64,000 bases of DNA. Origin: Candidatus Saccharimonadota bacterium. Lineage in GTDB: Bacteria; Patescibacteriota; Saccharimonadia; Saccharimonadales; JACDBH01. Within the stretch, counting starts at the first letter, position 1, and each line of letters begins with the position of its first letter. The stretch is taken from contig JAQGGW010000005.1 in NCBI GenBank assembly GCA_028289135.1, forward strand, positions 2,941-66,940. Direction: 5' to 3'. A program made the translations under genes and the position numbers. The notes beneath the pieces were generated by a model. It made no database searches. It had not been told where the DNA came from and saw only the letters and a list, made by a program, of their open reading frames with translations. Below, one piece after another: positions 35,766 through 64,000 of the stretch.

Positions 35766-35839
35766 TGGCTGGGGATGAGGGATTCGAACCCCCGATCTCG
35801 GAACCAGAATCCGATGCCTTACCACTTGGCCAATCCCCA
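35766..35839 (-). tRNA. tRNA-Gln (CUG), CCA encoded
   Basis: Reverse complement folds as acceptor TGGGGAT/ATCCCCA, anticodon arm TCGGA-TTCTGGT-TCCGA, T arm GGGGG-TTCGAAT-CCCTC, GCCA end. Confidence 0.9.
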
Positions 35840-51689: not shown

Positions 51690-52608
51690 TAGTATATATT
51701 ATAACATTAAAATAATTAGACGACAAACACCACGAATACCGGAGTACTCGTGGTTAATGTGTTCTCTTTGTGCGCGTAAAGGTGCAATGTCTCATTAGGA
51801 GGAGAACATATTGTCTCGGGCCATGCCCGCGCACTAGCTATGGTTTCGTATGCATACGGCCGTATGTACGATGTTTTGCATTATTGTTTGATAACAGCTC
51901 TTTATACTCTGTACGTCCCAAGGCTTAATGCGCCTGAATGAGGGATCTTTACACGTTCTTGCTAGGCAAAAAGGAGCGTATCATTTGTTTTCAGCAAACA
52001 GGTGCCGGGTAGGCGGTGGACCGCACCATGCTGCCATTCCATCCAGTGGCCGTTCCAGATTTCTCCAGATTGGCTTAGAAGGTCAAGCGAGCACCATGCG
52101 ACCGGACCGCATCGGCCACCCTCCGCAGTCTTCTTATAGCAAAAGACTTGGGTGGTTTCACATAATCATGATTTTTTGTCACCCGCACACCTGGTTTTGA
52201 TTATTGCCCGATGCGCATACCTCTCTCGAGGCGATCCTGCGGCTTTAGTCCTGCGTAGCGGCTTATTAAGCTACTAACCGGCATCTGCCTGCTGCTAAAA
52301 CATTTGTGATACGGCTATTTTGCGCTTTTGCTCTCCGATGCTCCCTCGATGTATTTCTGTATACACCTTCGGTCCGCTTCTCGAGCAAAAGCACAAACTA
52401 GCTCGTTCAAAATGTTTTAGACATACGTCTGCAAAAGACGTAAAAACGAAAATTTCTTAAATTATTTATATTTAAACTATTGTAGAAGAGAATACGTTTG
52501 TAGCTCCAGTGTAGCACAGATTATTGATTTTGTCAAGAGCAATCTTCTTTATAGTGCTTTTGTTTAGTCAACATTTATGGTTTATAGTGGTCATCCAAAG
52601 AGGTAATT
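51690..52608. other. Unassigned ~0.9-kb interval without a credible ORF; candidate large structured RNA or decayed sequence
   Basis: The only ORF of 60 aa or more (51928-52200) has non-protein-like composition. Many strong local helices, for example 51731-51756 and the 10-bp stem 52324-33/52383-92. Confidence 0.5.
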
Positions 52609-52611
52609 ATG
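52601..52611 (+). repeat. Left copy of an 11-nt direct repeat, AGGTAATTATG
   Basis: Identical 11-mer at 63248-63258. It overlaps the radC RBS and start codon. Confidence 0.3.
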
Positions 52612-53256
52612 AAGATATCAGAACTTGAGTTAATAGATCGCCCGCGCGAAAAACTTGCAGCAAAAGGTGTGAAGAATTTGTCGGACTTTGAGTTGCTCCA
52701 GTTAATTATCGGGAGCGGCGTATTTGGGGCAGATGTAACAGTTATTGCAAAAGAAATTAAAAAACTTCTAGATAAATATGGTTATTTAGTTACCCTAGAT
52801 CAGCTGAAGGATATTAAAGGCGTCAGCCTTGCAAGCGCAAGTAAAATTCTTGCTACTTTTGAACTAAGTCAGCGATATACAGTGCAAGATGGGGTTCAAG
52901 TTAAATCCGTTGAAGATGTTTTGCCGCTCTTAAGCTACATAAGAGATAAAAAGCAGGAATATTTTGTTTGCATAACACTCGATGGTGCAAATAGAGTTAT
53001 TGCAACTCGCACTATTACAATTGGCACACTTACTAATTCGCTAGTCCATCCGCGTGAAGTTTTTGCCGACGCTATAACTGATCGTGCGGCGAGCATAATA
53101 ATTGCCCATAATCATCCAGGTGGAAGCCTGAACCCAAGTGACGCAGATGACGATGTCACCATAAGCATAAAATCTGCAGGAAGCATTCTTGGCATTCAAC
53201 TTTTAGATCATCTTATAATTACGAAGCTTGACTACAAAAGCATTATAAATGGTTAA
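52609..53256 (+). CDS. radC: RadC-like JAB/MPN domain protein
   Basis: 215 aa with the HNHPGG JAMM motif and an N-terminal HhH-like region. Confidence 0.88.
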   Translation: MKISELELIDRPREKLAAKGVKNLSDFELLQLIIGSGVFGADVTVIAKEIKKLLDKYGYLVTLDQLKDIKGVSLASASKILATFELSQRYTVQDGVQVKSVEDVLPLLSYIRDKKQEYFVCITLDGANRVIATRTITIGTLTNSLVHPREVFADAITDRAASIIIAHNHPGGSLNPSDADDDVTISIKSAGSILGIQLLDHLIITKLDYKSIING

Positions 53257-53300
53257 ATCATAAGCTATATTACACTGTCAAAAAGTGTTATAATTAAAGC

Positions 53301-53495
53301 ATGAAAGCGCCATCCAGCACTCGTAGAAAGAAAGCAGTTTCTGCTGCTGTTTGGTCTGTTAAAGCAGAGGGCCTTCGGCCTACAAAGGCAGCCTCAAAGA
53401 GCCTTGGATCTTACGCATCAGGCAAAATCTCTGCCAAACAATTACGTGCGGAAACAGCACGCAACGTAAAGAACCTGCTTCGAACATCCAAATAG
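53301..53495 (+). CDS. VbhA-type antitoxin of the Fic toxin
   Basis: 64 aa containing SVKAEG, which fits the (S/T)xxxE(G/N) inhibitory motif. Its stop lies 1 nt before the fic ATG. Confidence 0.75.
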   Translation: MKAPSSTRRKKAVSAAVWSVKAEGLRPTKAASKSLGSYASGKISAKQLRAETARNVKNLLRTSK

Positions 53496-53496
53496 T

Positions 53497-54117
53497 ATGG
53501 CCTATATAATAAAGAACGATCCGTATATTGATCCGGAGTTTGGGGTGCTGCGCAACAAATTGGGTATTATTAGTCAGAAAACTCTCGATGAGGTGGAATT
53601 TACAATTACTTCAACTGAGATCGCGATTTTAGAAGAGAATATTATTAGGGGTGAATTCGATTTAAATCATTTAAAAGCAGTGCACAAAAAGATATTTGGT
53701 GATCTGTATGAGTGGGCTGGCGAAATACGGACAGTGGATATGGGCAAAGATGATACGCTTTTTGCTCATGCAGAATATATTGTGCCGAGTGCAAATGTAT
53801 TATTTGCAGAACTCAAAAATGAAAATTTTTTAAAGGGTCTTAAAAATCCAGAATTTGTAGAGCGGTTTGCGCACTATTATTCTGAAGTTAACATCCTGCA
53901 TCCTTTTCGGGAGGGCAATGGCCGAGCCCAGCGAGCGTTCTTTACACTTTTGGCAAGATATTCTGGCTGGCACGTAGCATGGGACCAAATGATTCAGGAC
54001 GACAATATAGCCGCTAGTGTTGCGGCATATAATGGCGACGAAGAGCCATTGGTTGAGATTTTACTTCCTTTGTTCGAATGGGTAGATGAGGACTATTGGA
54101 ATCTTGGCTTGGCATAG
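53497..54117 (+). CDS. fic: Fic-domain protein (AMPylase-type toxin)
   Basis: Intact HPFREGNGRAQR active-site motif; 206 aa. Confidence 0.9.
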   Translation: MAYIIKNDPYIDPEFGVLRNKLGIISQKTLDEVEFTITSTEIAILEENIIRGEFDLNHLKAVHKKIFGDLYEWAGEIRTVDMGKDDTLFAHAEYIVPSANVLFAELKNENFLKGLKNPEFVERFAHYYSEVNILHPFREGNGRAQRAFFTLLARYSGWHVAWDQMIQDDNIAASVAAYNGDEEPLVEILLPLFEWVDEDYWNLGLA

Positions 54118-54164
54118 TAATGAGTTCCACTATAGGGGTGAAGAGAGTATAATTCTCAGTAAGT

Positions 54165-56573
54165 ATGACCAAAAAAGAAGCTTATTCCCGGGTGGTGATT
54201 GATCGCAAGCTGCGTGAAGCTGGTTGGGATATTGAAGACGAAGAGCAAGTTGTCTTTGAAGATCATAGCACCGCCGGCAGAGCTGACTATGTATTAAAAG
54301 ATTCAAAGGGCATGCCCATAGCGCTTATTGAGGCAAAAGCACCTGAGATTGACCCATATAATGCTAAAAAACAGGCTCGTGATTACGTTGACCTTCAATA
54401 CAAACAGATTGATTTTATATATTTGGCCAACGATCAAAAAATATATTTTTGGGATCTGGGGCATGGCGATGCAGTGCCGTCAGACAGCGGCTTTTTCTCG
54501 CAAAGCGATTTAGAACGAAGACGCGCATCCGGCCGCGTAAATAATGTTAGCCCATTGCTCCAAGAAGCTATAGATACAGATTATTTTAAAGATATTACCG
54601 ATCAGATAAAACTTCGTGATTACCAACTAGACGCATGGAATGCTATTGCAACCAATTATGACGAAAAGCAAAAACGTGCCTTCTTGCTTGAGATGGCAAC
54701 CGGCACGGGCAAAACCGTTCTGGCAGCCTTAATTATTAGCAGATTCTTGCGTACTAATAATGCAAGCCGAGTACTATTTATTGTTGATAGACAGTCATTG
54801 GCAAACCAAACAAAAGGTACTTTTGAACAGCTTCTTCGTAATATTTCCACAGTTGGGGTTTATTGGGGCGGCAAAAGGCAAAACCTTACAGGCAGCAATG
54901 TAGTTATCGCAACTATTCAGTCCCTCGGGCTACATGGTAAAAAAGACTTTACGCCAGGGGCGTTTGATTTAATTATTCACGACGAAGCTCACAGAAGTAT
55001 TTATACGCCTGAGGCGAGGGCAGCGGTTGATCATTTTGTGGGTGCGACAAAAATCGGTCTTACGGCCACGCCTCGTGATTTCTTAAAAAATATTGATATT
55101 GAACAGCTTAGCAATGACGACCCACGTGCTTTAGAGCGCCGCATTCAACGCGATACATATCGTTACTTTGGCTGTGAAAATGGTGTGCCAACATTTCGAT
55201 ATACAATTCAGGACGGCTCAAAAGCTGGCTATTTAATTGAGCCGGTTTACCGTAAGGCAAACACCTCGCTTACGTACCAAGCCCTGAGTGATCAAGGCAT
55301 AACAAAGTTAGATGATGTAGAGCTAGAAGAAGGCACAAGCCTTAAGATTCGTGACTTAGAGCGAAAAGTATTCTTTCCGAAGCGCAATCGTGCAATGATG
55401 CAAGAGTTTTTAGACTACGCAGATTATGCGCCAAACGGTGAAGTAGGCAAGACTTTGATATTTGCAGTTTCGCAGAATCACGCACTTGCTTTAACAAAAA
55501 TTCTGAACGAATTAACGCCAGAATATAACGGCCGCTTTGCCGAAGTTATTACAAGCCGCGTGCATGGGGCACATGAGATAGCCAAAGATTTTGCAAACCT
55601 TAATAACAAACTGCCACGCGTTGCCGTTACTGTTGATATGCTTGCGACAGGCTTTGACGCGCCAGAAATTCTGAACCTTGTCATGGCACGTGCAATTTAT
55701 GACCCTACAACCTATCAACAAATGAAGGGCCGCGGTACACGGCTATGTCCAGAAGTTAAAAAGGAGCGCTTCGTAATTCATGACTTTGCCGGTGTCATTG
55801 ATTACTTTGCTGAAAAGCATGACTGGGATGTTCCGCTGAATGCTCCAGCTAATAAAGTTTACGGTACGGCTGTAGAATCAGTAGAAGAAACAATGCCTAT
55901 GATTCGTGGATCTGCAATTGGTGAGCCGATACAAGAGTATGTTCGTGCGAGTGATATACCTACAAGCAATATGCAAGATTTTATCGCTACACGTGACGTG
56001 GTGCAGTACGGTCTTGGCGAGGGCGATGTTGTTGACAGGAATATGTACCAGGACGAATGGACCAAAGCGGTTCATAACTATGTAAAAGAAAATCGAGAAA
56101 AAGTCGAGCAAGTTATTGACGATCCAGAGCAACTAGACGAGCTCATGGTAGATATTAACCGCGAACTTTTGGACCGACCAAAATATTACTTTAATGAAGA
56201 GACCTTACAGCAAAGTCACCGAGTTATAGCTGGCGTAAGAGATTTTTTCTTGGCGGCACTCGGTAAGACAAAATTACCAACACGTGATGAACAGCTAGCG
56301 GAGTTTAAGCAAGGCCTCGTGAATAAATTTGCCGACAGCGAAGGTGGCGCATCACAGCGTCGCACGCAAATGGTCAAATATTTGGCGGATCACCTTATGG
56401 GTGACCATAAACTTGTTTTAGCAATACGGCTGGAGGGTAACTTATCATTTTTAGCTAAACCAGAATTTGCACAGGCATATACAACCCGCGACTGGCTTGC
56501 AGAATTTAAAGACAAAGATGAACTTTTGGAATTAATTAGTGATATAGCTGTAAACCCGCTACTAAAGGTTTAA
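54165..56573 (+). CDS. hsdR: Type I restriction enzyme R subunit
   Basis: N-terminal PD-(D/E)xK-like GRADYVL...IALIEAKA, helicase motif I MATGTGKT and motif II HDEAH; 802 aa. Confidence 0.9.
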   Translation: MTKKEAYSRVVIDRKLREAGWDIEDEEQVVFEDHSTAGRADYVLKDSKGMPIALIEAKAPEIDPYNAKKQARDYVDLQYKQIDFIYLANDQKIYFWDLGHGDAVPSDSGFFSQSDLERRRASGRVNNVSPLLQEAIDTDYFKDITDQIKLRDYQLDAWNAIATNYDEKQKRAFLLEMATGTGKTVLAALIISRFLRTNNASRVLFIVDRQSLANQTKGTFEQLLRNISTVGVYWGGKRQNLTGSNVVIATIQSLGLHGKKDFTPGAFDLIIHDEAHRSIYTPEARAAVDHFVGATKIGLTATPRDFLKNIDIEQLSNDDPRALERRIQRDTYRYFGCENGVPTFRYTIQDGSKAGYLIEPVYRKANTSLTYQALSDQGITKLDDVELEEGTSLKIRDLERKVFFPKRNRAMMQEFLDYADYAPNGEVGKTLIFAVSQNHALALTKILNELTPEYNGRFAEVITSRVHGAHEIAKDFANLNNKLPRVAVTVDMLATGFDAPEILNLVMARAIYDPTTYQQMKGRGTRLCPEVKKERFVIHDFAGVIDYFAEKHDWDVPLNAPANKVYGTAVESVEETMPMIRGSAIGEPIQEYVRASDIPTSNMQDFIATRDVVQYGLGEGDVVDRNMYQDEWTKAVHNYVKENREKVEQVIDDPEQLDELMVDINRELLDRPKYYFNEETLQQSHRVIAGVRDFFLAALGKTKLPTRDEQLAEFKQGLVNKFADSEGGASQRRTQMVKYLADHLMGDHKLVLAIRLEGNLSFLAKPEFAQAYTTRDWLAEFKDKDELLELISDIAVNPLLKV

Positions 56574-56577
56574 AACA

Positions 56578-59043
56578 ATGGCAGAATTTAATACCGCAGA
56601 CCTACACAAACAAGTTGACCGTCTTATGGATATTTTCTTTGGGGCGGGTGTTGCAAGCCACCCAACAATTATTGAACAGATTAACTACCTGCTATTTATG
56701 CGCGCACTTTCTTATAAGGATGACGAATATCTTGCACTTGGCATTAATGATGCCGACACGATTGTTTTTGACGGTGAGCTTGAAAAATATCGCTGGGAAA
56801 ACTTACTGAGTCTAAATGCTGAAGCATTGTTTGTAGCGCTTGAAGATTGCTTTCGTAAAATTCCAGAAAGCACAAACAATAAAACGGTTCGTTTAGTTTT
56901 TCGAAATGCGCATATAAAACTGTTTGATAAGCCGAGTCTGCGGGTTGTAGTGCATGAAATTGATGCCTTTGCCAAACTGATGGACGAAGGAGAACATGAA
57001 GGTAAACACGATATTTTCGGTGATACATATGAATACTTGTTGAGTAAGCTTGCGCAAGCCGGTACTTCTGGCCAGTTCAGAACGCCGCGCCACATTATTG
57101 AGTTTCTTGTAGCAGTAGTCGCGCCTAAAAAAGGCGAAACTATTCTCGACCCAGCCGTCGGCACGGCTGGTTTTTTAGTGAAAGCTTTTGAATATTTGCG
57201 AAAAGAATACACATCGCCGGAACAGGCAGCCACGGGTGGTGCATTCGATAAGCTAAGCTCCAAAGAACATACATTTTTGTACGAACATACCTTTACTGGC
57301 TTTGACAGCGACGAAGACATGATTAAATTTGGCATGATGAACCTGTACCTTCACGGCTTGCAGAATGCGCATCTTGTGCGCCAAAACACACTTACCGACA
57401 CTGCTGGTAATCGCGATAAATACGATATTATTCTGGCCAACCCGCCTTTTAGTGGCAAGATTGACCGCGACAGCGTGGCTCAAGAGCTGCAAATGAATAC
57501 AGGAGCAACGGAAGTTCTATTTTTGCGTTATATGCTAGAGCATTTGACCGACAGTGGCCGTATGGGTGTGATAGTGCCAGAGGGCGTGATTTTTAATGGC
57601 TCAAGTGCACATGTTAAAATTCGCAAAATGCTTATTGAAAGTGGGCTTTGGTGTGTAGTGAGCCTCCCAGCGGGGGTCTTTAACCCATATGCGGGTGTTA
57701 AAACATCTATAGTTTTTATAGACAAATCCCTAAACAAAAATACTGAAATATTATTTGCCAAAGCTGAATCTGATGGTCTTAGTTTTGGTGCGCAGCGTCG
57801 CCCTATAATAAGAAACGATATACCGGGTATTTTGAGTGGTATAAAAAACCTTAAAGCGGGTATACCTTCAGAGTCTATCCATGTGCATAGTGTTAACAGA
57901 GATATGATTATAAATAGCAAAGACTATAACCTAAATGGTGATCGCTATAAAACTGTTGGCACTAACATGCTTTCGCAATGGACGCATACCGAGCTTAGTA
58001 ATGTGGCAAGAATTGAAAAGGGGAAATCATCTTCTACTAAAACTGAGCCTGGAGAGTACCCCCTAGTTCTTACAGCAAAAAATAGTAAAACTTCTAAAAA
58101 TTATGATTTTGAGGGCGAAGCAGTTCTTGTGCCACTTATCTCTGCGACAGGCCACGGTAAATCTGATATTAAAACAATTCATTATCAGAAGGGTAAGTTT
58201 GCTGCAGCAAATTTACTAGCAGTAGTTATGCCAGATCCTAATAAATGTGATGCAAAATATCTGCGTTTGTATTTAGATTATAAGAAAGATTACATCGCTA
58301 AAACTAAAATGTCTGGAGCAGCTAACAGGAGTATGAAGTTAGAGGATTTACACGATGTTCCTATCCCTCTACCGACTTTAGACATTCAGCATCAAATTGT
58401 ATCTGAAATTGATGGTTATCAAAAAATTATTGATGCTGCTAAAATAATTGTCAAATTTTATAAACCAGCTGTCAAAATGAATCCAGACTGGGATATCTCT
58501 AGCCTCGAGGATGTCTTTGATATGGTAAATGGCAGAGCTTTTAAAACATCGGAATGGTCGGATGCAGGAATTCCTATAATCCGGATCGCTAACCTAAACG
58601 GGGAATCCGCGAAGTATAACTATTACTCCGGTAATTATGACGACAAAACGCTTGTAGAACCTGGCCAACTGCTATTTTCTTGGTCTGGTACAAAAGGCAC
58701 ATCCTTCGGACCACATCTATGGCAGAGAAAAGCTGGGCTTTTAAATCAGCACATATTCAAGCTTAATCCAAAAGGAATTCCTATTGATTTGACGTTCGCC
58801 TACCACTATTTGAAAGCAATCGTGCCTGAAATAGAAGCAAAAGCACATGGATCAGGCGGCTTAGTACATATTACGAAGGGAGAACTTGGCAAGTTTAAAA
58901 TCCCTACTCCTGAGATTAGTGAACAAAGAAAAATAGTTGCCGCACTCGAAACAGAGCAGCAACTTATAAATGCAAACAAAACACTAATCGAAACATTCCA
59001 GCAAAAAATTAAAGATAAAATCGCAGAAATTTGGGGTGAATAA
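56578..59043 (+). CDS. hsdM: Fused Type I methyltransferase-specificity polypeptide (HsdM domain plus a complete two-TRD HsdS domain)
   Basis: N-terminal HsdM_N-like region, SAM motif ILDPAVGTAGFL and catalytic NPPF. Residues from about 470 to 821 contain two TRD-like blocks, each followed by a helical spacer (LDIQHQIVSEID..., ISEQRKIVAALE...). Confidence 0.85.
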   Translation: MAEFNTADLHKQVDRLMDIFFGAGVASHPTIIEQINYLLFMRALSYKDDEYLALGINDADTIVFDGELEKYRWENLLSLNAEALFVALEDCFRKIPESTNNKTVRLVFRNAHIKLFDKPSLRVVVHEIDAFAKLMDEGEHEGKHDIFGDTYEYLLSKLAQAGTSGQFRTPRHIIEFLVAVVAPKKGETILDPAVGTAGFLVKAFEYLRKEYTSPEQAATGGAFDKLSSKEHTFLYEHTFTGFDSDEDMIKFGMMNLYLHGLQNAHLVRQNTLTDTAGNRDKYDIILANPPFSGKIDRDSVAQELQMNTGATEVLFLRYMLEHLTDSGRMGVIVPEGVIFNGSSAHVKIRKMLIESGLWCVVSLPAGVFNPYAGVKTSIVFIDKSLNKNTEILFAKAESDGLSFGAQRRPIIRNDIPGILSGIKNLKAGIPSESIHVHSVNRDMIINSKDYNLNGDRYKTVGTNMLSQWTHTELSNVARIEKGKSSSTKTEPGEYPLVLTAKNSKTSKNYDFEGEAVLVPLISATGHGKSDIKTIHYQKGKFAAANLLAVVMPDPNKCDAKYLRLYLDYKKDYIAKTKMSGAANRSMKLEDLHDVPIPLPTLDIQHQIVSEIDGYQKIIDAAKIIVKFYKPAVKMNPDWDISSLEDVFDMVNGRAFKTSEWSDAGIPIIRIANLNGESAKYNYYSGNYDDKTLVEPGQLLFSWSGTKGTSFGPHLWQRKAGLLNQHIFKLNPKGIPIDLTFAYHYLKAIVPEIEAKAHGSGGLVHITKGELGKFKIPTPEISEQRKIVAALETEQQLINANKTLIETFQQKIKDKIAEIWGE

Positions 59044-59045
59044 AC

Positions 59046-60710
59046 ATGAGAATAACTAGAATTTGCATCAAAAATTTTCGATCTATAGAGGATGTAACTA
59101 TTGAAACAAATAATTTGAATGTACTCGTAGGTCAAAATAATCATGGCAAAACTAATTTTTTAACTGCGATTAATTGGTTTTTTTATGGCGGAAGTACTGA
59201 ACTTCACAAGAGAAAGGGTACTGGATCAGGTAACCCATATATTGAGATATGTTTCGACGATGTGCAGGGGGCATTGAAGAAGATGAAGAACGAGAAAAAT
59301 AGCAAAACCCTATCTTCAAAATTAGAAAATGTAGAAGAAGTTTCTCTGGTAAGGACTGTAGACGAGGAGGGTAAAACCAATCGAAGAATTGTTAATAGAG
59401 AAACTCGTGAACTTAGTGACCCAGGTACGGGATTTGACAAGGCCCTAAACGATTTCTTGCCTAACCTAGAGTTTGTACAAACTGAAAATAATTTACGAGA
59501 TATTTTAAAATACGGTAAAACTACTCAAATTGGTACCATGCTTTCGGGAGTCTTGAACGAGATACTGGCTAGCGGCGATCCAGCTTACAAAAGATTTGTA
59601 GATGAATTTTATACCTTATTTGGATCAAAAGAATCAAAAATTTACGATGAACTTAGAAAACTTGCTGAGAGCGTGGAGCTATATTTAAAAAAGCAGTTTC
59701 CTGAAACCACAAAAGTTGAGTTTGAGGTCAAGAATCCTGAACTTACAGATCTGTTCAAAAATTTTTCCGCGAAAGTAGATGATGGGGTTGTGACTGAAGC
59801 TTATGAAAAAGGCGATGGAATGCAACGAGCTTTAATGCTTGCGATAATTCAAACCTTTGCAGATTACAGGAGAAAAAATGCAGATATAAAGAACTTTATT
59901 TTTCTAATTGATGAGGGTGAGCTGCATCTTCACCCTGGTGCACAAAGGCATTTAAAGTCTGCACTTGAAGATCTTGCAAAGGATGGAGATCAGATATTTT
60001 TGACTACCCACTCCTCTGTGCTTATATCTGACGATAGCTCAGGTGACAAACAAAGTACTTTCAAAGTTGAAAAGTTCGAGGACGGAGTAACGAATATTGA
60101 TATACAAAATGAATACGCTAAGAAAAACATTATATACGAACTTCTTGGAGGTAGCCCTACCGATTTGCTAATGCCGTCGAATTTTATAATTGTTGAAGGC
60201 TCTTCAGAAGTTGATTTTTTAAGCAAGGTAATCGAACGACATTATCCAGAGAAAAAGTCCCTTAAGATCCTTCCCGCAAGAGGAGACTTTTATCAATCAG
60301 TACAACTCATGAATTCATTAGAGAAATTATTTACACCGCTGTCAGAGAGTATATATAAAGGTCATTTTCAAGTTCTTATTGATAAAAGTAAGCTCACAGA
60401 TGCGCAATTTCAAGAACTCCTTACTAAAGTCCCTAATTTCGATAAGGACTCCCAGTTTCATGAGCTTAGTCTTGGATCCCTTGAAGAATATTATCCTATC
60501 AAAAAAGCTGACCAATGTGCGGACTCATCAAATAGCAGATTATTTATGGAAAAATGGAAACTGTCATCAGCCGAAGTCTCCGCGCTTAGTTCTAAACAGA
60601 AGAGCCGTATGTCAAAAATTATTGGTGATAATATCACTAAAGATCAATTTGAAAACGAAATGCCATTAATGTTAAAGGTTTTAAATATGGCCTACGAGAA
60701 GAAATTATGA
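59046..60710 (+). CDS. ABC-type ATPase with a C-terminal Toprim/DUF4435-like region (OLD-family nuclease or fused PARIS AriA-AriB-like)
   Basis: MRITRICIKNFRSIED..., Walker A GQNNHGKTN, Walker B FLIDEGELHLHP, and a C-terminal IIVEGSSEVDFL motif. Confidence 0.8.
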   Translation: MRITRICIKNFRSIEDVTIETNNLNVLVGQNNHGKTNFLTAINWFFYGGSTELHKRKGTGSGNPYIEICFDDVQGALKKMKNEKNSKTLSSKLENVEEVSLVRTVDEEGKTNRRIVNRETRELSDPGTGFDKALNDFLPNLEFVQTENNLRDILKYGKTTQIGTMLSGVLNEILASGDPAYKRFVDEFYTLFGSKESKIYDELRKLAESVELYLKKQFPETTKVEFEVKNPELTDLFKNFSAKVDDGVVTEAYEKGDGMQRALMLAIIQTFADYRRKNADIKNFIFLIDEGELHLHPGAQRHLKSALEDLAKDGDQIFLTTHSSVLISDDSSGDKQSTFKVEKFEDGVTNIDIQNEYAKKNIIYELLGGSPTDLLMPSNFIIVEGSSEVDFLSKVIERHYPEKKSLKILPARGDFYQSVQLMNSLEKLFTPLSESIYKGHFQVLIDKSKLTDAQFQELLTKVPNFDKDSQFHELSLGSLEEYYPIKKADQCADSSNSRLFMEKWKLSSAEVSALSSKQKSRMSKIIGDNITKDQFENEMPLMLKVLNMAYEKKL

Positions 60711-61900
60711 ATGAAATTATATGTCCACACTGTAAAAAAGCCTTTAAAGTTGATGAGGCAGGCTTTGCTGATATTTTGAAGCAGGTGCGTGACCACAAGT
60801 TTGAGGAAGAGTTGCTTGAGCGCGTGCAAATGCTGGAGAGAGATAAAGAAAATGCCGTTAAGCTGGCGGAGGCTACTACTAAAAACGAACTTCAAGCCGA
60901 AGCGGCAAAAAAAGATGCGGAAGTCGCTGAGCTTAAGGCAAAACTTCAGGCTACAGAAACTGAAAAAAAGCTGGCTGTTACTGAAGCGGTAAATATAGTC
61001 GAAAAACAGCGCGATGAGCTTGTTGGGAAACTTCAAAGTAAAGATACGGAAAAACAGTTGCTTGAAGCTTCGCTGAAAGATAAGTATGAATCCGAACTTA
61101 AGTCTAAAGACGAAATGATTGCCTACTACAAAGACATGAAGGCTAAGCTTTCTACAAAAATGGTAGGCGAGACACTAGAACAGCACTGTGAGATAGAATT
61201 TAACAAACTGCGTGCAACGGCTTTTCAAAACGCATACTTCGAGAAAGACAATGATGCAAGCAGCGGCAGCAAGGGCGATTATATTTACAAAGAAACTGAT
61301 GAAAATGGTACCGAAATTATCTCTATCATGTTTGAGATGAAGAACGAAGGTGATGAAACGGCAACAAAAAAGAAAAATGAAGATTTCCTGCGTGAGCTAG
61401 ACAAAGATCGAAGCGAGAAAAATTGCGAGTTTGCAGTACTTGTATCTCTACTTGAAGCCGATAACGAACTATATAACTCGGGCATTGTTGATGTGTCGCA
61501 TAAACATTCGAAGATGTATGTCATACGGCCCCAATTCTTTATACCAATAATTACTTTACTTCGTAATGCCGCAATGACCTCAATGCAGTACAAATCCGAA
61601 CTTGCCCTAGTTAAATCACAGAATATTGATGTTACGAACTTCGAGGATCAGTTAAATGATTTTCGTGACTCTTTTGGTAAAAGCTACCGTCTGGCATCCG
61701 AGCGTTTTCAAGATGCAGTAGCGAGTATTGATAAGTCGATAGCTCAGCTCCAAAAAACTAAAGAGAACTTGCTGAAGTCAGAAGATCACTATCGAATCGC
61801 AAACAATAAGGCAGATGAGCTATCGGTCAAGAAACTTATACGCGGAAACCCTACTATGTCTGCTAGGTTTGCAAATTTAGATGATAAGAAGACTAGATAA
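60707..61900 (+). CDS. DUF2130 family protein (N-terminal zinc ribbon, coiled coil, conserved C-terminal domain)
   Basis: MNEIICPHCKKAFKVDEAGFADILKQVRD start and a long E/K-rich coiled coil. ATGA overlap with the upstream gene. Confidence 0.75.
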   Translation: MNEIICPHCKKAFKVDEAGFADILKQVRDHKFEEELLERVQMLERDKENAVKLAEATTKNELQAEAAKKDAEVAELKAKLQATETEKKLAVTEAVNIVEKQRDELVGKLQSKDTEKQLLEASLKDKYESELKSKDEMIAYYKDMKAKLSTKMVGETLEQHCEIEFNKLRATAFQNAYFEKDNDASSGSKGDYIYKETDENGTEIISIMFEMKNEGDETATKKKNEDFLRELDKDRSEKNCEFAVLVSLLEADNELYNSGIVDVSHKHSKMYVIRPQFFIPIITLLRNAAMTSMQYKSELALVKSQNIDVTNFEDQLNDFRDSFGKSYRLASERFQDAVASIDKSIAQLQKTKENLLKSEDHYRIANNKADELSVKKLIRGNPTMSARFANLDDKKTR

Positions 61901-61942
61901 GTCAGTTTGACAGTATACGGACTCTCATGATCTACTTAAGGC

Positions 61943-62779
61943 ATGTCACCGAAGTTAATTTCTATATTTTTGCCTGATGGTAACCCAAATGCTTTAAAGA
62001 TTGCAGAAATATCGAACCGTAATATACGGGCACTTTTAATTCCTCGCCCAAAACTTACAGATGCAATAGCAAGAGTTGAGCTAAATCAGCCCGCGCTTTA
62101 TGTGCTTACGGATAGAGATGCAAGTGAAATTTATATCGGTGAATGCGAAAACTTTTTGCACAGAGTAAAATCACATGACCAAAAGAAAGATTTTTGGGAT
62201 GTTGCATTAGTGTTTGTAGCCAAAGACAGTTCGCTTGAAAAAGGGGATGTAAAATATCTAGAATCCTTAGCCGTAGAAATAGCAAAGGACGCTGAACGTA
62301 CTAAAGTTACTAATCTCACTGTACCGGCACGTAATAATTTACATGAATTTAAAGCTCAAACTATATTAGAATTTTTTGACGATCTCAAGCTACTTATTTC
62401 TGCACTCGGTTATCCTGTGTTTGACAAAATAAAAATTGAAGAAAAAAATGAATCTGAATTTTGGTATTGTGATAGACGTCTCACGAAGGCTAAAGCTATT
62501 TATGACGAAAACGGTTTCACGGTGATTAAGGGCTCGATTATAGATGCTACTGTCCAGCCATCATTATTAAAGTATTATCCATATGCTGTCAAAGAGCGAG
62601 AAGAACTTATATCACAAAAGGCATCCCTGAATCACGATAAAGTTTCATATACACTAAAAGAGAATATTACTTTCAGCAGCGCAAATAAGGCAGGCGGCTT
62701 TGTTGTCGGTGCCAATATAAATGCTTGGACAAACTGGAAAAATAAGGCCGGTAAAACAATGGACGAGGTTTTGCGTTAA
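61943..62779 (+). CDS. GIY-YIG-like nuclease family protein with a DUF4357-like C-terminal domain
   Basis: ALYVLTD....EIYIGECENFLHRVKSH...KDFWD...VF pattern. The C-terminus FTVIKGS...S.ANKAGGFV.G resembles DUF4357. Confidence 0.7.
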   Translation: MSPKLISIFLPDGNPNALKIAEISNRNIRALLIPRPKLTDAIARVELNQPALYVLTDRDASEIYIGECENFLHRVKSHDQKKDFWDVALVFVAKDSSLEKGDVKYLESLAVEIAKDAERTKVTNLTVPARNNLHEFKAQTILEFFDDLKLLISALGYPVFDKIKIEEKNESEFWYCDRRLTKAKAIYDENGFTVIKGSIIDATVQPSLLKYYPYAVKEREELISQKASLNHDKVSYTLKENITFSSANKAGGFVVGANINAWTNWKNKAGKTMDEVLR

Positions 62780-62783
62780 AATT

Positions 62784-63200
62784 ATGGAAGAAAATGTAAA
62801 GAAAAACTTCTGGCTCTATACTTTAGCTTTAAGCGATGGAAAATATTATGTGGGTATTACTGCGCAACGAAACCCATACGTACGTATCAATCAACATGGA
62901 AAATTTGCGAGCGCTGCATGGACTCATAAACATAAACCGCTAAAAGAACCACTTATTGAACTTAAAAAACTCGGATATATGACATATGTAGACGCCAAAA
63001 AGTTAGAGTCTGAGACGATGATGGAGTATGTGAAAAAATATGGGCAAAATAATGTACGTGGTGGTAACGTGAACTTTACTGAAGATTCTATAAAAATAGG
63101 TAACAGATTTTGGCTAAAAGATGATTTTAGTACAACAATATTAGTAACAACCCTTTGTTTAATGATTATATTTTTGAGCATAGCTTACCAGCTAAAATGA
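62784..63200 (+). CDS. Small GIY-YIG domain protein with a C-terminal TM helix
   Basis: FWLYTLALSDGKYYVGITAQ...R..QH and VRGG motifs. The C-terminus ILVTTLCLMIIFLSIAY is hydrophobic. The ATG at 62784 lies 4 nt after the upstream stop; the track ORF starts earlier, inside the upstream gene. Confidence 0.65.
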   Translation: MEENVKKNFWLYTLALSDGKYYVGITAQRNPYVRINQHGKFASAAWTHKHKPLKEPLIELKKLGYMTYVDAKKLESETMMEYVKKYGQNNVRGGNVNFTEDSIKIGNRFWLKDDFSTTILVTTLCLMIIFLSIAYQLK

Positions 63201-63247
63201 ACCCCTACCTAGACATAGAAGGCGTAATATGTCGAATGAACTATAAA

Positions 63248-63258
63248 AGGTAATTATG
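63248..63258 (+). repeat. Right copy of the 11-nt direct repeat AGGTAATTATG
   Basis: Identical to 52601-52611. It lies in the intergenic region after the last island gene. Confidence 0.3.
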
Positions 63259-63310
63259 GCAAAAGGTATGTAATTTCTATTCCTCTCTCAGTTCAGATAA
63301 ACTTATAGCT

Positions 63311-63982
63311 ATGGTCCGACATCACATCCAAAATGAAATTTTGTACCGGCTGAGTTTTGATGAGTCTTTGCGGTTTAGCGAGCTGAAGCCGACGGAGCTT
63401 GAAAACAAGCTTTTTGATTACCATTTGAAGCAGCTTATTAAAGACGGTTTGGTGCAAAAAAGTGAGGATGGAGCTTACACACTAACACCAGATGGCAAGA
63501 GAATGGGCGTGACTGTTTTTGATGACCAGCTGAGCAAGGCCAAAATGCCACGGTCGGTTTTGTTTTTGGTCATACGGCGCAAAAGCGACAATGCTTGGCT
63601 TTTGTACAAACGCTCCACTCATCCGCTAAAAGACTTGGCAGGATTTATGCACCTAACGGCCGAAGCAGACAAAACGTTGAATGACGGCGCGCACGAGCAA
63701 GTAAAAGAACGCACCGGTCTGGACTGCAGCTTTACGCCGCTTGGCGGAGGATTCTTTAAAACCTTTAGAGGCGACAAGCTCGAAAGCTTTACTAACTTTA
63801 CGCTTCTGGTTTGTGAAGATGCAAAAGGGGAATTAGTTCCCAACGACGACAGGGCAGAGTATTTTTGGGCTACCGACCCTGACTTCGCCGCGCCGGATAT
63901 GCTGCCAAACATGGTGACGTTGGTGGACCATTATCAAGCAGGCAAGCCGTTTTTTATTGAGGAAGTTTTTAATATTTCTTAG
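63311..63982 (+). CDS. Winged-helix DNA-binding domain fused to a NUDIX-like domain
   Basis: N-terminal wHTH pattern (LRFSEL...FDYHLKQLIKDGLV) and a C-terminal Nudix-fold-like region with a degenerate box. Confidence 0.65.
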   Translation: MVRHHIQNEILYRLSFDESLRFSELKPTELENKLFDYHLKQLIKDGLVQKSEDGAYTLTPDGKRMGVTVFDDQLSKAKMPRSVLFLVIRRKSDNAWLLYKRSTHPLKDLAGFMHLTAEADKTLNDGAHEQVKERTGLDCSFTPLGGGFFKTFRGDKLESFTNFTLLVCEDAKGELVPNDDRAEYFWATDPDFAAPDMLPNMVTLVDHYQAGKPFFIEEVFNIS

Positions 63983-64000
63983 GCCTCAACCGGTGGTTGA

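What the first reader, a model, noticed from the sequence alone, without database searches (positions are those of the whole stretch)
59046..60710. Single-chain ABC-ATPase plus Toprim-like protein directly coupled to the R-M genes: an OLD class 1 nuclease or a fused PARIS (AriA-AriB)
Seen: N-terminus MRITRICIKNFRSIED, Walker A GQNNHGKTN, a long helical insertion and Walker B FLIDEGELHLHP. About 100 aa later there is FIIVEGSSEVDFL, the acidic VEG..E/D motif that opens Toprim/DUF4435 domains. I could not identify a clear DxD motif further on; the nearest candidate is VLIDKSK. The start codon lies 2 nt after the hsdMS stop. Established: OLD nucleases and PARIS both combine this ATPase with a Toprim nuclease, and fused AriA-AriB genes have been reported. 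Inference: a sensor-effector that monitors the R-M system or phage anti-restriction factors. The incomplete Toprim signature leaves nuclease competence open.
Basis: partly seen in the sequence, partly recalled or inferred. Interest (0 to 1): 0.6.

Follow-up and report, generated by a model that had tools for sequence, protein, structure and literature searches.

The report
Divergent OLD nuclease inside restriction-modification operon
The gene encodes a divergent member of the known OLD family of anti-phage proteins (an ATPase fused to a Toprim nuclease domain); its relatives all lack one canonical catalytic aspartate and sit inside restriction-modification operons of several types far more often than chance allows.

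Summary
ORF 59046-60710 (+, 554 aa) starts 2 nt after the hsdM-S stop, and its stop overlaps the start of a DUF2130 gene (ATGA).

It is a single-chain OLD-family protein, not a fused PARIS. The PADLOC 'Old' profile scores 214 bits against 74 for AriAB. Phage P2 Old is the best phage hit. The full AF2 model matches GajA, Thermus OLD and retron-Eco8 OLD.

The C-terminal domain has a Toprim fold. Its best PDB match is the Xanthomonas OLD C-terminal region (TM 0.52). It is divergent: Pfam OLD-like_TOPRIM gives 18 bits, below threshold, against 67 bits for P2 Old.

By motif order, five of six canonical metal ligands are present (E384, E388, D446, S478, E480). The second Asp of DxD is missing. In 78 relatives this position is never Asp, and the motif reads D-x-P. 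K519 is invariant.

All ATPase catalytic residues are invariant.

Relatives occur in many phyla. In 16 of 71 species loci, a same-strand R-M gene of type I, II, IIG or III abuts the gene. R-M gene density is about 10-fold higher in the first kb than beyond 3 kb. About two thirds of the loci have no detected R-M gene.

Best reading: an autonomous ATPase-sensor/Toprim-effector module repeatedly recruited as a second-line defence in R-M operons. Its trigger, substrate and nuclease competence are untested.

The parts
59046..60710 (+). OLD-family gene (554 aa): N-terminal ABC ATPase, C-terminal divergent Toprim and a helical tail
   Evidence: ORF. PADLOC Old 1.2e-63. P2 Old is the best phage hit at 1e-25. 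The AF2 full model matches GajA, 6p74 and retron-Eco8 OLD over more than 600 columns.
59130..59153 (+). Walker A / P-loop GQNNHGKT (K35)
   Evidence: Sequence. K35 is 78/78 conserved. It corresponds to P2 Old K37, which is essential in vivo (PMC7049728).
59526..59696 (+). Three-helix insertion in the ATPase (residues about 161-217), the position of the OLD dimerisation domain
   Evidence: AF2 helices 161-177, 179-192 and 198-217. The family profile aligns residues 180-359 to Ts OLD 171-346. Equivalence to the dimerisation domain is inferred.
59808..59831 (+). KGDGMQRA, a degenerate ABC signature-like motif that is a family hallmark
   Evidence: Invariant in A1. The tool picked it as a search pattern. 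It compares with P2 Old FGHGTQRS.
59895..59936 (+). Walker B and D-loop FIFLIDEGELHLHP (D289, E290, H296)
   Evidence: All three residues are 78/78 conserved. They correspond to P2 Old D299 and H306.
60009..60011 (+). H-loop histidine H322
   Evidence: 78/78 conserved. It corresponds to P2 Old H332.
60180..60497 (+). Divergent Toprim core (residues 379-484): beta1-E384/E388, beta2-G413-D414, beta3-D446-K-S (family D-x-P in place of DxD), beta4-S478-x-E480-x-x-Y-P
   Evidence: AF2 strands 379-383, 406-410, 442-445 and 471-473. The top Foldseek PDB hit of the domain model is 6njv, the Xcc OLD C-terminal region (prob 1.0, TM 0.52). Pfam OLD-like_TOPRIM gives 18.1 bits, below the 23.2 cut-off, and covers only profile positions 6-57.
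60555..60698 (+). C-terminal helical tail (W504, invariant K519, F535-E536)
   Evidence: AF2 helices 508-551 at pLDDT about 90. K519 is 78/78 conserved. Its role as the catalytic basic residue is inferred only.
54165..56573 (+). hsdR (802 aa, EcoAI-like type I restriction subunit), first gene of the operon
   Evidence: Pfam ResIII, HSDR_N and Helicase_C. PADLOC REase_I 3e-64. NCBIfam EcoAI family 5e-72, below its cut-off.
56578..59043 (+). Fused hsdM-hsdS (821 aa: N6_Mtase plus two Methylase_S domains). Its stop lies 2 nt before the OLD-like start.
   Evidence: Pfam N6_Mtase 3e-55 and Methylase_S 4e-39 (two stretches). PADLOC MTase_I 2e-107. Junction sequence.
60707..61900 (+). DUF2130 gene (397 aa: zinc ribbon, coiled coil, PD-(D/E)XK-type domain with GDYIY...FEMK). 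Its start overlaps the OLD-like stop.
   Evidence: Pfam DUF2130 8e-87. ATGA overlap. DUF2130 is listed in the PD-(D/E)XK superfamily survey PMC3424549. It is adjacent to the OLD-like gene in L001, L068 and L082 as well, but is mostly independent of it.

Best explanation
The gene encodes a single-chain OLD-family protein: an OLD-type ABC ATPase with a helical insertion, fused to a Toprim domain and a short helical tail. It belongs to a large, horizontally mobile subfamily. The subfamily's ATPase is fully canonical. Its Toprim keeps E384, E/D388, D446, D/S478, E480 and an invariant K519, but has D-x-P where other OLD nucleases have DxD.

Proposed mechanism, by analogy with P2 Old, GajA, Vc OLD and PARIS (inferred, not shown): the ATPase/oligomer acts as the sensor of an infection cue. 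Activation exposes the Toprim site, which cuts nucleic acid (nicking DNA or cleaving tRNA). This arrests the infected cell or degrades phage DNA.

The module works on its own. It is repeatedly placed in the same transcription unit as R-M genes, usually right after the methyltransferase. There it would act as a second line of defence when restriction is evaded. In this window it is co-translated with hsdR, hsdM-S and a DUF2130 nuclease-like gene.

Confidence is about 0.9 that it is an OLD-family ATPase-Toprim protein. It is about 0.6 that the Toprim is an active nuclease. It is about 0.35-0.4 that it serves specifically as a back-up to R-M.
For: Identity:
- PADLOC Old scores 1.2e-63 (214 bits), against AriA 126, retron OLD 85, GajA 75 and AriAB 74 bits.
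- P2 Old is the best hit in 50,697 phage records (1e-25, residues 1-425).
- PDB profile hits are Ts OLD at 8e-15 and GajA at 5e-14.
- The top Foldseek hits of the full model are GajA, 6p74 and retron-Eco8 OLD over more than 600 columns. SMC/Rad50 heads align over only about 400.

Toprim:
- AF2 gives a four-strand beta-alpha topology, with each conserved acidic residue at a strand C-terminus.
- The domain-only Foldseek top hit is 6njv (OLD C-terminal region). It is followed by the retron-Eco2 Toprim, AriB and 6p74.
- The motif order matches P2 Old: VEGKTE / DGKG / DCD / DIE. It also matches the catalytic sets defined in PMC7049728.

Selection on the site: E384, E480 and K519 are 78/78 conserved. 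Position 388 is always acidic. D446 is 76/78.

ATPase: K35, D289, E290, H296 and H322 are 78/78. They equal the residues essential in P2 Old.

R-M linkage:
- 16 of 71 species loci have a same-strand R-M gene within 200 nt, often overlapping by 1-4 nt.
- 26 of 71 have an R-M gene within 5 kb.
- R-M gene density is 19.5 per 100 kb in the first kb and about 1-2 beyond 3 kb.
- The gene is inserted between the M and R genes of type I (L001, L025), type II (L070) and type III (L063, L088) systems.

Autonomy:
- Close relatives have different R-M partners or none.

Precedent: OLD-ABC/Toprim modules are described as back-up effectors in BREX-type loci (PMC12839542). PrrC and PARIS are described as R-M guardians (PMC12707154).
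Against: - The second Asp of DxD is a metal A ligand. P2 D455A abolishes killing in vivo. This residue is absent family-wide.
- Pfam OLD-like_TOPRIM is below threshold and stops before the DxD. P2 Old gives 67 bits over the full profile.
- The C-terminal profile finds no PDB relative by sequence. hhalign to the P2 Old C-terminal domain aligns only beta1-alpha1-beta2 (prob 29%).
- The domain fold match is modest (E 4.5e-3, TM 0.52).
- Residue equivalences rest on motif order and AF2 secondary structure, not on a 3-D superposition.
[quoted passage not shown] A Toprim does not therefore guarantee an effector role.
- About two thirds of loci show no R-M gene with my seed set.
- I did not run a control on canonical DxD-type class 1 OLDs, so R-M embedding may not be specific to this subfamily.
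- No trigger, substrate or phenotype is known.
Confidence: 0.6

Rival explanations
1. It is a fused PARIS (AriA-AriB in one chain). It would sense anti-restriction proteins such as Ocr and cleave tRNA through an AriB/DUF4435-type Toprim.
For: PADLOC AriA scores 7e-37 and AriAB 3e-21. AriB chains 8ux9_A and 8v46_D appear among the domain's fold hits. The type I R-M context fits an anti-restriction sensor. Fused forms exist as a PADLOC/DefenseFinder category.
Against: The Old profile scores three times higher (214 against 74 bits). No Pfam DUF4435 hit appears even at E<=10 on the C-terminal domain. AriB matches are weak (E 0.07-0.16, TM 0.30, about 120-130 columns), against TM 0.52 over 211 columns for the OLD C-terminal region. 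The best phage relative is P2 Old. Many relatives sit with type II, C5 or type III R-M systems. From my own knowledge, DNA mimics of the Ocr type are not known to target these systems.
Confidence: 0.07
2. The Toprim is catalytically impaired, and the protein works through its ATPase alone or by controlling another nuclease. In this window that nuclease would be the translationally coupled DUF2130 PD-(D/E)XK protein. In other loci it would be the neighbouring restriction endonuclease.
For: DxD is replaced by D-x-P family-wide. P2 D455A is dead in vivo. The YbjD Toprim is dispensable. There is an ATGA overlap with DUF2130, and the adjacency recurs in L001, L068, L082 and in 3 of 61 DUF2130 loci. 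OLD-ABC paired with alternative nucleases has been described (PMC12839542).
Against: Five acidic or polar ligands plus K519 are invariant or nearly so across phyla. That is not expected for a dead site. DUF2130 accompanies only about 5% of family members (4 of 78). Two thirds of loci have no nuclease partner that I could recognise. Ts OLD metal-A triple mutants still nick DNA. Losing one ligand need not abolish catalysis.
Confidence: 0.2
3. It is an ordinary stand-alone class 1 OLD whose position next to R-M genes only reflects clustering of mobile defence genes in islands, with no functional coupling.
For: 45 of 71 loci lack a detected R-M gene within 5 kb. L006 and L009 stand alone, and L008 is prophage-like. 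Integrases lie nearby in 8 loci. The window region has low GC (0.37-0.42 against about 0.46), typical of an acquired island. The window holds further defence-like genes: Fic/VbhA, PDC-S14 and GIY-YIG.
Against: Island clustering should decay over tens of kb. Here R-M density drops about 10-fold within 3 kb. Many junctions are overlapping stop/start codons on the same strand. The gene lies between the M and R genes of otherwise compact systems (L025, L063, L070, L088). This implies co-transcription and selection for the arrangement.
Confidence: 0.25
4. It is a PrrC/RloC-like anticodon nuclease: an ABC-type NTPase embedded in a type I R-M locus and held latent by the R-M complex.
For: It has an ABC-type ATPase inside a type I R-M operon, as prrC has (PMC12707154). 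P2 Old itself is now reported to cleave tRNA (bioRxiv 10.64898/2026.07.10.737580).
Against: No PrrC/RloC-type family appears in the Pfam or NCBIfam hits. The C-terminal domain is a Toprim fold, not the PrrC anticodon-nuclease domain. The partners are too diverse for a specific masking complex.
Confidence: 0.03

Closest known systems
Phage P2 Old and Thermus scotoductus OLD (class 1 OLD nucleases; PDB 6P74)
   Same: Both are single chains of about 530-590 aa. Both have an OLD-type ABC ATPase with the same essential residues (K, D/E, D-loop H, H-loop H) and a helical insertion. Both have a C-terminal Toprim with E...E, first Asp and S/D-x-E motifs in the same order. Neither has a helicase, reverse transcriptase or separate Toprim partner. 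The metal B triad is of the Ts type (acidic, Ser, Glu).
   Different: The second Asp of DxD is missing (family D-x-P). Pfam OLD-like_TOPRIM is below threshold (18 against 67 bits for P2 Old). The spacing differs: 32 aa between D446 and S478, against 86 in P2. The helical tail is longer, with an invariant Lys. The gene is frequently embedded in R-M operons, whereas class 1 is described as isolated genes (PMC10568477).
Class 2 OLD / Gabija GajA (PDB 6NJV, 6NK8, 8SM3)
   Same: The best fold match of the C-terminal domain is the Xcc class 2 C-terminal region (Toprim plus helices, 211 columns). Full-length models align over more than 600 columns.
   Different: There is no adjacent UvrD-like GajB. 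The protein is shorter. GajA profiles score only about 75 bits. The DxD is incomplete.
PARIS (AriA + AriB, and fused AriAB)
   Same: Both combine an OLD-type ABC ATPase with a Toprim effector. Both have a conceptual link to anti-restriction and R-M.
   Different: The AriB/DUF4435 signature is absent. Profile and fold scores are much weaker than for OLD. The architecture is a native fusion of the Old type.
PrrC in the EcoprrI type I R-M locus (R-M guardian)
   Same: Both are NTPase-effector genes sitting inside an R-M operon and transcribed with it. A role as a back-up when restriction is blocked is plausible for both.
   Different: The effector domains are unrelated (Toprim against the PrrC anticodon nuclease domain). 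The family studied here associates with many unrelated R-M types and often with none.
OLD-ABC/Toprim 'backup suicidal effectors' embedded in BREX and BREX-related loci (PMC12839542)
   Same: The same domain pair is embedded between core genes of a methylation-based defence system. That paper proposes semi-autonomous second-layer immunity.
   Different: That paper deals with BREX and BR systems. In this study the hosts are classical type I, II, IIG and III R-M operons. This subfamily also has the D-x-P Toprim variant, which I did not find described.

Membership tests
OLD family (ABC ATPase + Toprim) | N-terminal OLD-type ABC ATPase with Walker A Lys, Walker B Asp/Glu, D-loop His and H-loop His | tested here: met
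   K35, D289/E290, H296 and H322 are present and 78/78 conserved. They align with P2 Old K37, D299, H306 and H332. Pfam AAA_15 gives 2e-31.
OLD family (ABC ATPase + Toprim) | Helical (dimerisation) domain inserted in the ATPase | tested here: inconclusive
   AF2 places three helices (161-217) at the expected position at pLDDT about 65-77. The profile aligns this stretch to Ts OLD 171-346. The oligomeric state was not testable.
OLD family (ABC ATPase + Toprim) | C-terminal Toprim fold | tested here: met
   AF2 gives a beta-alpha x4 topology. The top Foldseek PDB hit of the isolated domain is 6njv, the OLD C-terminal region (prob 1.0, TM 0.52). Retron-Eco2 Toprim, AriB and 6p74 follow.
OLD family (ABC ATPase + Toprim) | Sequence match to Pfam OLD-like_TOPRIM (PF20469) at the gathering score | tested here: not met
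   The score is 18.1 bits against a cut-off of 23.2, E 0.004, over profile positions 6-57 of 67. The P2 Old control gives 66.8 bits over positions 1-67.
OLD family (ABC ATPase + Toprim) | Metal A triad: Glu of beta1 plus both Asp of DxD (Ts E377/D431/D433; P2 E398/D453/D455) | tested here: not met
   E384 and D446 are present. The third ligand is S448 here and Pro in 65 of 78 relatives, never Asp.
OLD family (ABC ATPase + Toprim) | Metal B triad (Ts D381/S478/E480; P2 E402/D541/E543) | tested here: met
   E388 is always E or D. S478 is D or S in 66 of 78. E480 is 78/78. The mapping rests on motif order and AF2 strand ends, not on superposition.
OLD family (ABC ATPase + Toprim) | Catalytic basic residue facing the site (Bp K562, Ts R487, P2 K550) | tested here: inconclusive
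   The position 7 residues after E480 (K487) is not conserved. K519, in helix 516-529, is 78/78 conserved and is a candidate. I had no model coordinates to check its position.
OLD family (ABC ATPase + Toprim) | Metal-dependent nuclease activity | not testable with these tools
   This needs biochemistry.
Class 1 OLD (context definition) | No adjacent UvrD-like helicase (class 2), retron RT/ncRNA (class 3) or separate AriB (class 4) | tested here: met
   The neighbours are hsdR, hsdM-S, DUF2130 and PDC-S14. None of the class-defining partners is present.
Class 1 OLD (context definition) | Isolated single gene, not proximal to other defence genes (PMC10568477) | tested here: not met
   The gene is translationally coupled to a type I R-M system and to DUF2130. 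16 of 71 relatives abut R-M genes.
PARIS, fused AriA-AriB | AriB-type Toprim (DUF4435) and best match to AriA/AriAB profiles | tested here: not met
   There is no DUF4435 hit. AriAB scores 74 bits against 214 for Old. AriB fold hits reach TM 0.30.
PARIS, fused AriA-AriB | Activation by Ocr-type anti-restriction proteins | not testable with these tools
   This needs co-expression assays.
Gabija GajA | Adjacent GajB (UvrD/PcrA/Rep-like helicase) | tested here: not met
   No such gene lies in 52-64 kb. None was recovered as a recurrent neighbour in the clustering of genes flanking the family in the 80 species loci.
PrrC/RloC anticodon nucleases | C-terminal PrrC-type anticodon nuclease domain | tested here: not met
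   The C-terminus is a Toprim fold. No PrrC/RloC family appears in the Pfam or NCBIfam hits.
MADS (methylation-associated defence system) | MAD2, MAD3 and MAD5 equivalogs at curated cut-offs | tested here: not met
   MAD3 scores 35.8 against a cut-off of 420. MAD2 scores 104 against 720. MAD5 scores 24.7 against 400. These are generic family resemblances only.

The most novel reading that the evidence does not exclude
This is a distinct, so far unnamed lineage of OLD proteins, in effect a fifth context class. It is defined by a D-x-P Toprim and by recurrent insertion into type I, II, IIG and III R-M operons, usually translationally coupled to the methyltransferase. Because the partner enzymes are unrelated, its cue would be something all R-M systems share. 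One candidate is the DNA ends or stalled DNA left by restriction, since P2 Old is reported to respond to aberrant DNA and probably to dsDNA ends. The other is failure of restriction. The protein would then either finish off restricted DNA or abort the cell. It would be a general 'R-M companion' nuclease, particularly common in genome-reduced Patescibacteria.
Probability: 0.25. Interest if true: 0.7.

Novelty: new variant of a known kind. Interest (0 to 1): 0.45.

Why it matters
OLD-type ATPase-Toprim proteins are among the most widespread building blocks of anti-phage immunity. The single-gene (class 1) forms are the least understood.

- A large subfamily keeps the whole active site except one canonical metal ligand. 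This offers a natural experiment on how many ligands a Toprim nuclease needs, and on whether ligand loss shifts activity (for example to nicking).
- The operon-level embedding in R-M systems of unrelated types extends the 'guardian/back-up' idea beyond PrrC, PARIS and BREX. It gives a concrete set of loci in which layered defence can be tested.
- It also matters for annotation. Pfam misses the Toprim domain in every member seen here, so these proteins are annotated as plain AAA or ABC ATPases.

Tried and rejected
Searches that returned nothing usable:
- The BFVD viral fold search of the domain gave nothing significant.
- The sequence profile of the C-terminal domain against the PDB gave only chance hits such as FADD and L18. 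As a control, the P2 Old C-terminal domain also finds no PDB OLD by phmmer. This null result is therefore uninformative.
- hhalign of the C-terminal profile against the P2 Old C-terminal domain aligned only beta1-alpha1-beta2.
- PADLOC on the C-terminal domain alone gave only PDC-M38B at E 0.009, too weak to use.
- The promoter and terminator scan was at background level and showed nothing between hsdM-S and the gene.

Identities rejected:
- MADS: scores lie far below the curated cut-offs.
- PrrC-like: the effector domain is the wrong one.

DUF2130 as an obligate partner: rejected. Only 3-4 of 61 DUF2130 loci and 4 of 78 OLD-like loci show the pair.

A dedicated R-M-linked sub-clade: only mild clustering was found (8 against 3.5 expected nearest-neighbour pairs, P about 0.03).

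Literature:
- The ABC-ATPase classification paper of Krishnan et al. 2020 (PMC7544218) is not held in the library.
- Makarova et al. 2012 does not mention OLD.
- Two further searches found no paper describing OLD genes inside classical R-M operons.
Full report
**Observation.** It spans 59046-60710 on the + strand, starts with ATG and encodes 554 aa. All quoted motifs are present. The upstream 821-aa ORF (56578-59043) ends with TAA. Two bases later comes the ATG, preceded by an SD-like GGGGTGA. The ORF's TGA overlaps the ATG of the next gene (ATGA at 60707-60710). The same protein is on record from a Candidatus Saccharibacteria metagenome-assembled genome (P0001). GC falls from about 0.46 to 0.37-0.42 beyond 52 kb, which suggests an acquired island.

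**Neighbours.** Upstream lie a RadC-like gene, a VbhA/Fic pair, an EcoAI-like hsdR (802 aa) and a fused hsdM-hsdS (N6_Mtase plus two Methylase_S domains). Downstream lie a DUF2130 gene, a PDC-S14 candidate defence gene (GIY-YIG plus DUF4357), a second GIY-YIG ORF and a winged-helix protein. Four genes, hsdR, hsdM-S, the gene under study and DUF2130, are separated by 4, 2 and -4 nt, so they probably form one operon. A promoter and terminator scan added nothing.

**ATPase.** Pfam AAA_15 (2e-31), AAA_21 and AAA_23 cover residues 1-329. In an alignment of the window protein with 77 relatives from different species, five residues are invariant: K35 (Walker A), D289 and E290 (Walker B), H296 (D-loop) and H322 (H-loop). 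They line up with P2 Old K37, D299, H306 and H332, each of which is needed for killing in vivo (PMC7049728; P2 Old sequence). AF2 places three helices (161-217) where Thermus OLD has its dimerisation domain.

**Which family.**
- Among defence-system profiles, 'Old' is by far the best at 1.2e-63 (214 bits, residues 1-413). AriA follows with 126 bits, the retron type I-B OLD with 85, GajA with about 75 and fused AriAB with 74.
- In 50,697 phage records the best hit is P2 Old itself (1e-25, residues 1-425).
- A family profile finds Thermus OLD (8e-15) and GajA (5e-14) in the PDB.
- The full AF2 model (pLDDT 79, pTM 0.73) matches GajA, 6p74 and retron-Eco8 OLD over more than 600 columns. SMC and Rad50 heads align over about 400.

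The protein is therefore a member of the OLD family. The fused-PARIS alternative is not supported.

**The C-terminal domain.** This was the open point.

At the sequence level the signal is weak:
- There is no Pfam Toprim hit on the full protein.
- The isolated C-terminus gives OLD-like_TOPRIM at 18.1 bits, under the 23.2 cut-off, and covers only profile positions 6-57 of 67.
- As a calibration, the P2 Old C-terminus gives 66.8 bits over the whole profile.
- A C-terminal family profile finds nothing real in the PDB by sequence. The P2 Old C-terminus does not either, so this null result means little.
- hhalign to P2 Old aligns only beta1-alpha1-beta2.

At the structure level the answer is clearer:
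- Both AF2 models give strand 379-383, helix, strand 406-410, helix, strand 442-445, helix, strand 471-473, helix, then a confident helical tail.
- The best PDB match of the domain-only model is the C-terminal region of Xanthomonas OLD (6njv; probability 1.0, TM 0.52, 211 columns). The retron-Eco2 Toprim, PARIS AriB and Thermus OLD follow.
- The E-value is modest (4.5e-3).

The domain is a Toprim of the OLD type, but a divergent one.

**Active-site inventory.** The published catalytic sets are as follows (PMC7049728).

| Site | Thermus OLD | P2 Old | This protein | Conservation in 78 sequences |
|---|---|---|---|---|
| Metal A | E377 | E398 | E384 | 78/78 |
| Metal A | D431 | D453 | D446 | 76 D, 2 E |
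| Metal A | D433 | D455 | S448 | Pro in 65, never Asp |
| Metal B | D381 | E402 | E388 | 65 E, 13 D |
| Metal B | S478 | D541 | S478 | 38 D, 28 S |
| Metal B | E480 | E543 | E480 | 78/78 |
| Basic residue | R487 | K550 | not identified | see below |

The mapping uses motif order and the AF2 strand ends. The family motif is thus D-x-P rather than DxD. The window's D-K-S is a rare variant of it. The lysine expected a few residues after E480 is not conserved. K519, in the helical tail, is 78/78 conserved and is a candidate for that role. G413-D414 after strand 2 is also nearly invariant.

I read this as a site under strong purifying selection, and therefore probably functional, with an altered metal A site. 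Three published results bear on the consequences:
- Thermus metal A triple mutants still nick DNA.
- A changed ligand in Vibrio OLD has been discussed as a reason for nicking-only activity (PMC12392090).
- P2 D455A is dead in vivo, and the YbjD Toprim is dispensable (PMC13261556).

Nuclease competence therefore stays unproven. These equivalences are inferences, because I could not superpose coordinates.

**Distribution.** The first search found 1,601 protein clusters with E<=1e-5. The best 120 hits, all but one near full length, run down to 43% identity. A pattern scan of one genome per species found 225 relatives. They occur in Patescibacteria, Bacteroidota, Pseudomonadota, Planctomycetota, Acidobacteriota, Verrucomicrobiota and others. 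This spread fits horizontal mobility. Integrases lie within 5 kb in 8 loci, and one homolog sits in a prophage-like region.

**Linkage to R-M genes.** Six look-ups of homologs with precomputed Pfam neighbours gave three R-M contexts and three non-R-M contexts.
- L001: inside a type I system, with DUF2130 again adjacent.
- L002: between a Dam-like and an N4/N6 methyltransferase.
- L003-L005: after a C5 methyltransferase, a McrB-like ATPase and a LlaJI-type nuclease.
- The other three stand alone or lie in a prophage.

I then analysed 80 species-level loci with iterative HMM searches seeded from these genes. I also clustered the neighbours without seeds and checked the cluster representatives against Pfam.
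- Of 71 usable loci, 16 have a same-strand R-M gene within 200 nt, often overlapping by 1-4 nt.
- 26 of the 71 have an R-M gene within 5 kb.
- R-M gene density is 19.5 per 100 kb in the first kb, 4.6 in the second, and about 1-2 beyond 3 kb.

The partner systems are of several types:

| R-M type | Loci |
|---|---|
| Type I | L025, L082 |
| Type IIG Eco57I/MmeI-like | L013 |
| Type II with TdeIII | L016, L030, L041, L070 |
| C5 methyltransferase systems | L021, L022, L023 |
| Type III Mod/Res | L063, L088, L074, L034, L035 |

In L025, L063, L070 and L088 the gene lies between the modification and restriction genes. Because my seed set is incomplete, these numbers are lower bounds.

Members that abut R-M genes are scattered through the family. 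A nearest-neighbour test gave 8 pairs against 3.5 expected (P about 0.03). Nearest neighbours carry different R-M types. The 69%-identical L013 follows a type IIG enzyme and precedes a GmrSD. The 68%-identical L012 has no R-M gene within 10 kb.

I did not run the same census on canonical DxD-type OLDs. I therefore cannot say that the embedding is peculiar to this subfamily.

**DUF2130.** The downstream gene carries a PD-(D/E)XK-type motif (GDYIY...FEMK). DUF2130 is listed in the survey of that superfamily (PMC3424549). It is adjacent to the OLD-like gene in the window, L001, L068 and L082. Among 61 metagenomic DUF2130 loci, however, only 3 have an adjacent OLD-like gene and 3 an adjacent hsdR. 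It is an occasional companion, not an obligate partner.

**Mechanism.** Three things are shown: the domain composition, an intact ATPase motif set, and a conserved but non-canonical Toprim site. The operon-level coupling to R-M genes is also shown to be far above background.

The mechanism itself is inferred from characterised relatives: an ATPase/oligomer sensor that licenses the Toprim effector.
- P2 Old is reported to be a tetramer that opens on activation. It responds to aberrant DNA structures and cleaves tRNA (bioRxiv 10.64898/2026.07.10.737580).
- Vibrio OLD nicks DNA.
[quoted passage not shown] 2023, as cited in PMC13261556).
- PARIS senses Ocr.

The R-M partners are unrelated enzymes. 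A specific masking complex of the PrrC kind is therefore unlikely. A shared cue is more plausible, for example DNA ends or failure of restriction. Simple co-expression as a second layer is also possible.

The idea of OLD-ABC/Toprim back-up effectors inside methylation-based systems has been published for BREX-type loci (PMC12839542). PrrC and PARIS are treated as R-M guardians (PMC12707154). I found no description of OLD genes inside classical R-M operons, nor of the D-x-P variant, in the searchable library. The key classification paper is not held, so prior description cannot be excluded.

**Verdict.** This is a real and correctly spotted gene: a divergent OLD-family ATPase-Toprim protein. 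It is class 1 only by exclusion, and it is not PARIS. It is a new variant of a known kind for two reasons. The catalytic motif is altered across the whole family. The gene is also repeatedly built into R-M operons of several types. Interest is moderate (0.45). The biology is plausible and testable, but the general concept is already established and nothing about activity is known.

Noticed in passing
window 53301-54117: A VbhA-like antitoxin (64 aa) is followed 1 nt later by a Fic/DOC protein (206 aa). The Fic protein matches the PADLOC candidate defence family PDC-S04 at 8e-74. The pair sits immediately upstream of hsdR, as a toxin-antitoxin or defence pair at the head of the island.
   Followed up: no
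window 56578-59043: hsdM and hsdS are fused into one 821-aa polypeptide: N6_Mtase with NPPF, then two target-recognition domains. hsdR is a short 802-aa EcoAI-like protein. This is an unusual subunit arrangement for a type I system.
   Followed up: no
window 60707-61900; L001 6465-7988; L068; L082: A DUF2130 gene (zinc ribbon, coiled coil and a PD-(D/E)XK-type motif GDYIY...FEMK) overlaps the OLD-like stop codon. It recurs next to OLD-like genes in at least three other loci. Most DUF2130 genes (about 95% of 61 loci) have neither an OLD-like nor a type I R-M neighbour.
   Followed up: partly
window 61943-63200: A PDC-S14 candidate defence protein (GIY-YIG plus DUF4357; 2e-81 in PADLOC) is followed by an overlapping second GIY-YIG ORF (62721-63200) with a C-terminal hydrophobic tail.
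   Followed up: no
window 52000-64000: GC content drops from about 0.46-0.49 to 0.37-0.42 over the last 12 kb. This stretch holds RadC, Fic/VbhA, the R-M genes, OLD, DUF2130 and PDC-S14. It is probably a horizontally acquired defence island. No tRNA or integrase was seen at its left edge; the nearest tRNA is at 35766.
   Followed up: partly
proteins P0055 and P0057 (alignment A1): These two homologs carry Trp at positions where Gly is otherwise invariant: KWDWMQRA for KGDGMQRA, LLWWSP for LLGGSP, VEW for VEG, NNHWKS for NNHGKT. The contigs probably use UGA=Gly (genetic code 25, Gracilibacteria/Absconditabacteria) but were translated with UGA=Trp.
   Followed up: no
L063, L088 (type III), L070 (type II), L025 (type I): In these loci the OLD-like gene is inserted between the methyltransferase and the restriction gene, with 1-4 nt overlaps or gaps. 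The position is analogous to that of prrC in EcoprrI.
   Followed up: partly
L034 and L035, +1 to +2 of the OLD-like gene: A type III-like Res gene, the OLD-like gene, a 1,075-aa SNF2 helicase and a DUF4391 gene form a recurrent four-gene block in two unrelated Bacteroidota-type genomes. DUF4391 also lies next to the gene in L045.
   Followed up: no
L003/L005 12776-16086: In the Bacteroides-type locus, a second and unrelated AAA_15/AAA_21 ATPase (771 aa) with a 332-aa partner lies 3 kb downstream of the OLD-like gene. It follows SLFN/AlbA_2 and Vsr genes, so there are two ABC-ATPase modules in one island.
   Followed up: no
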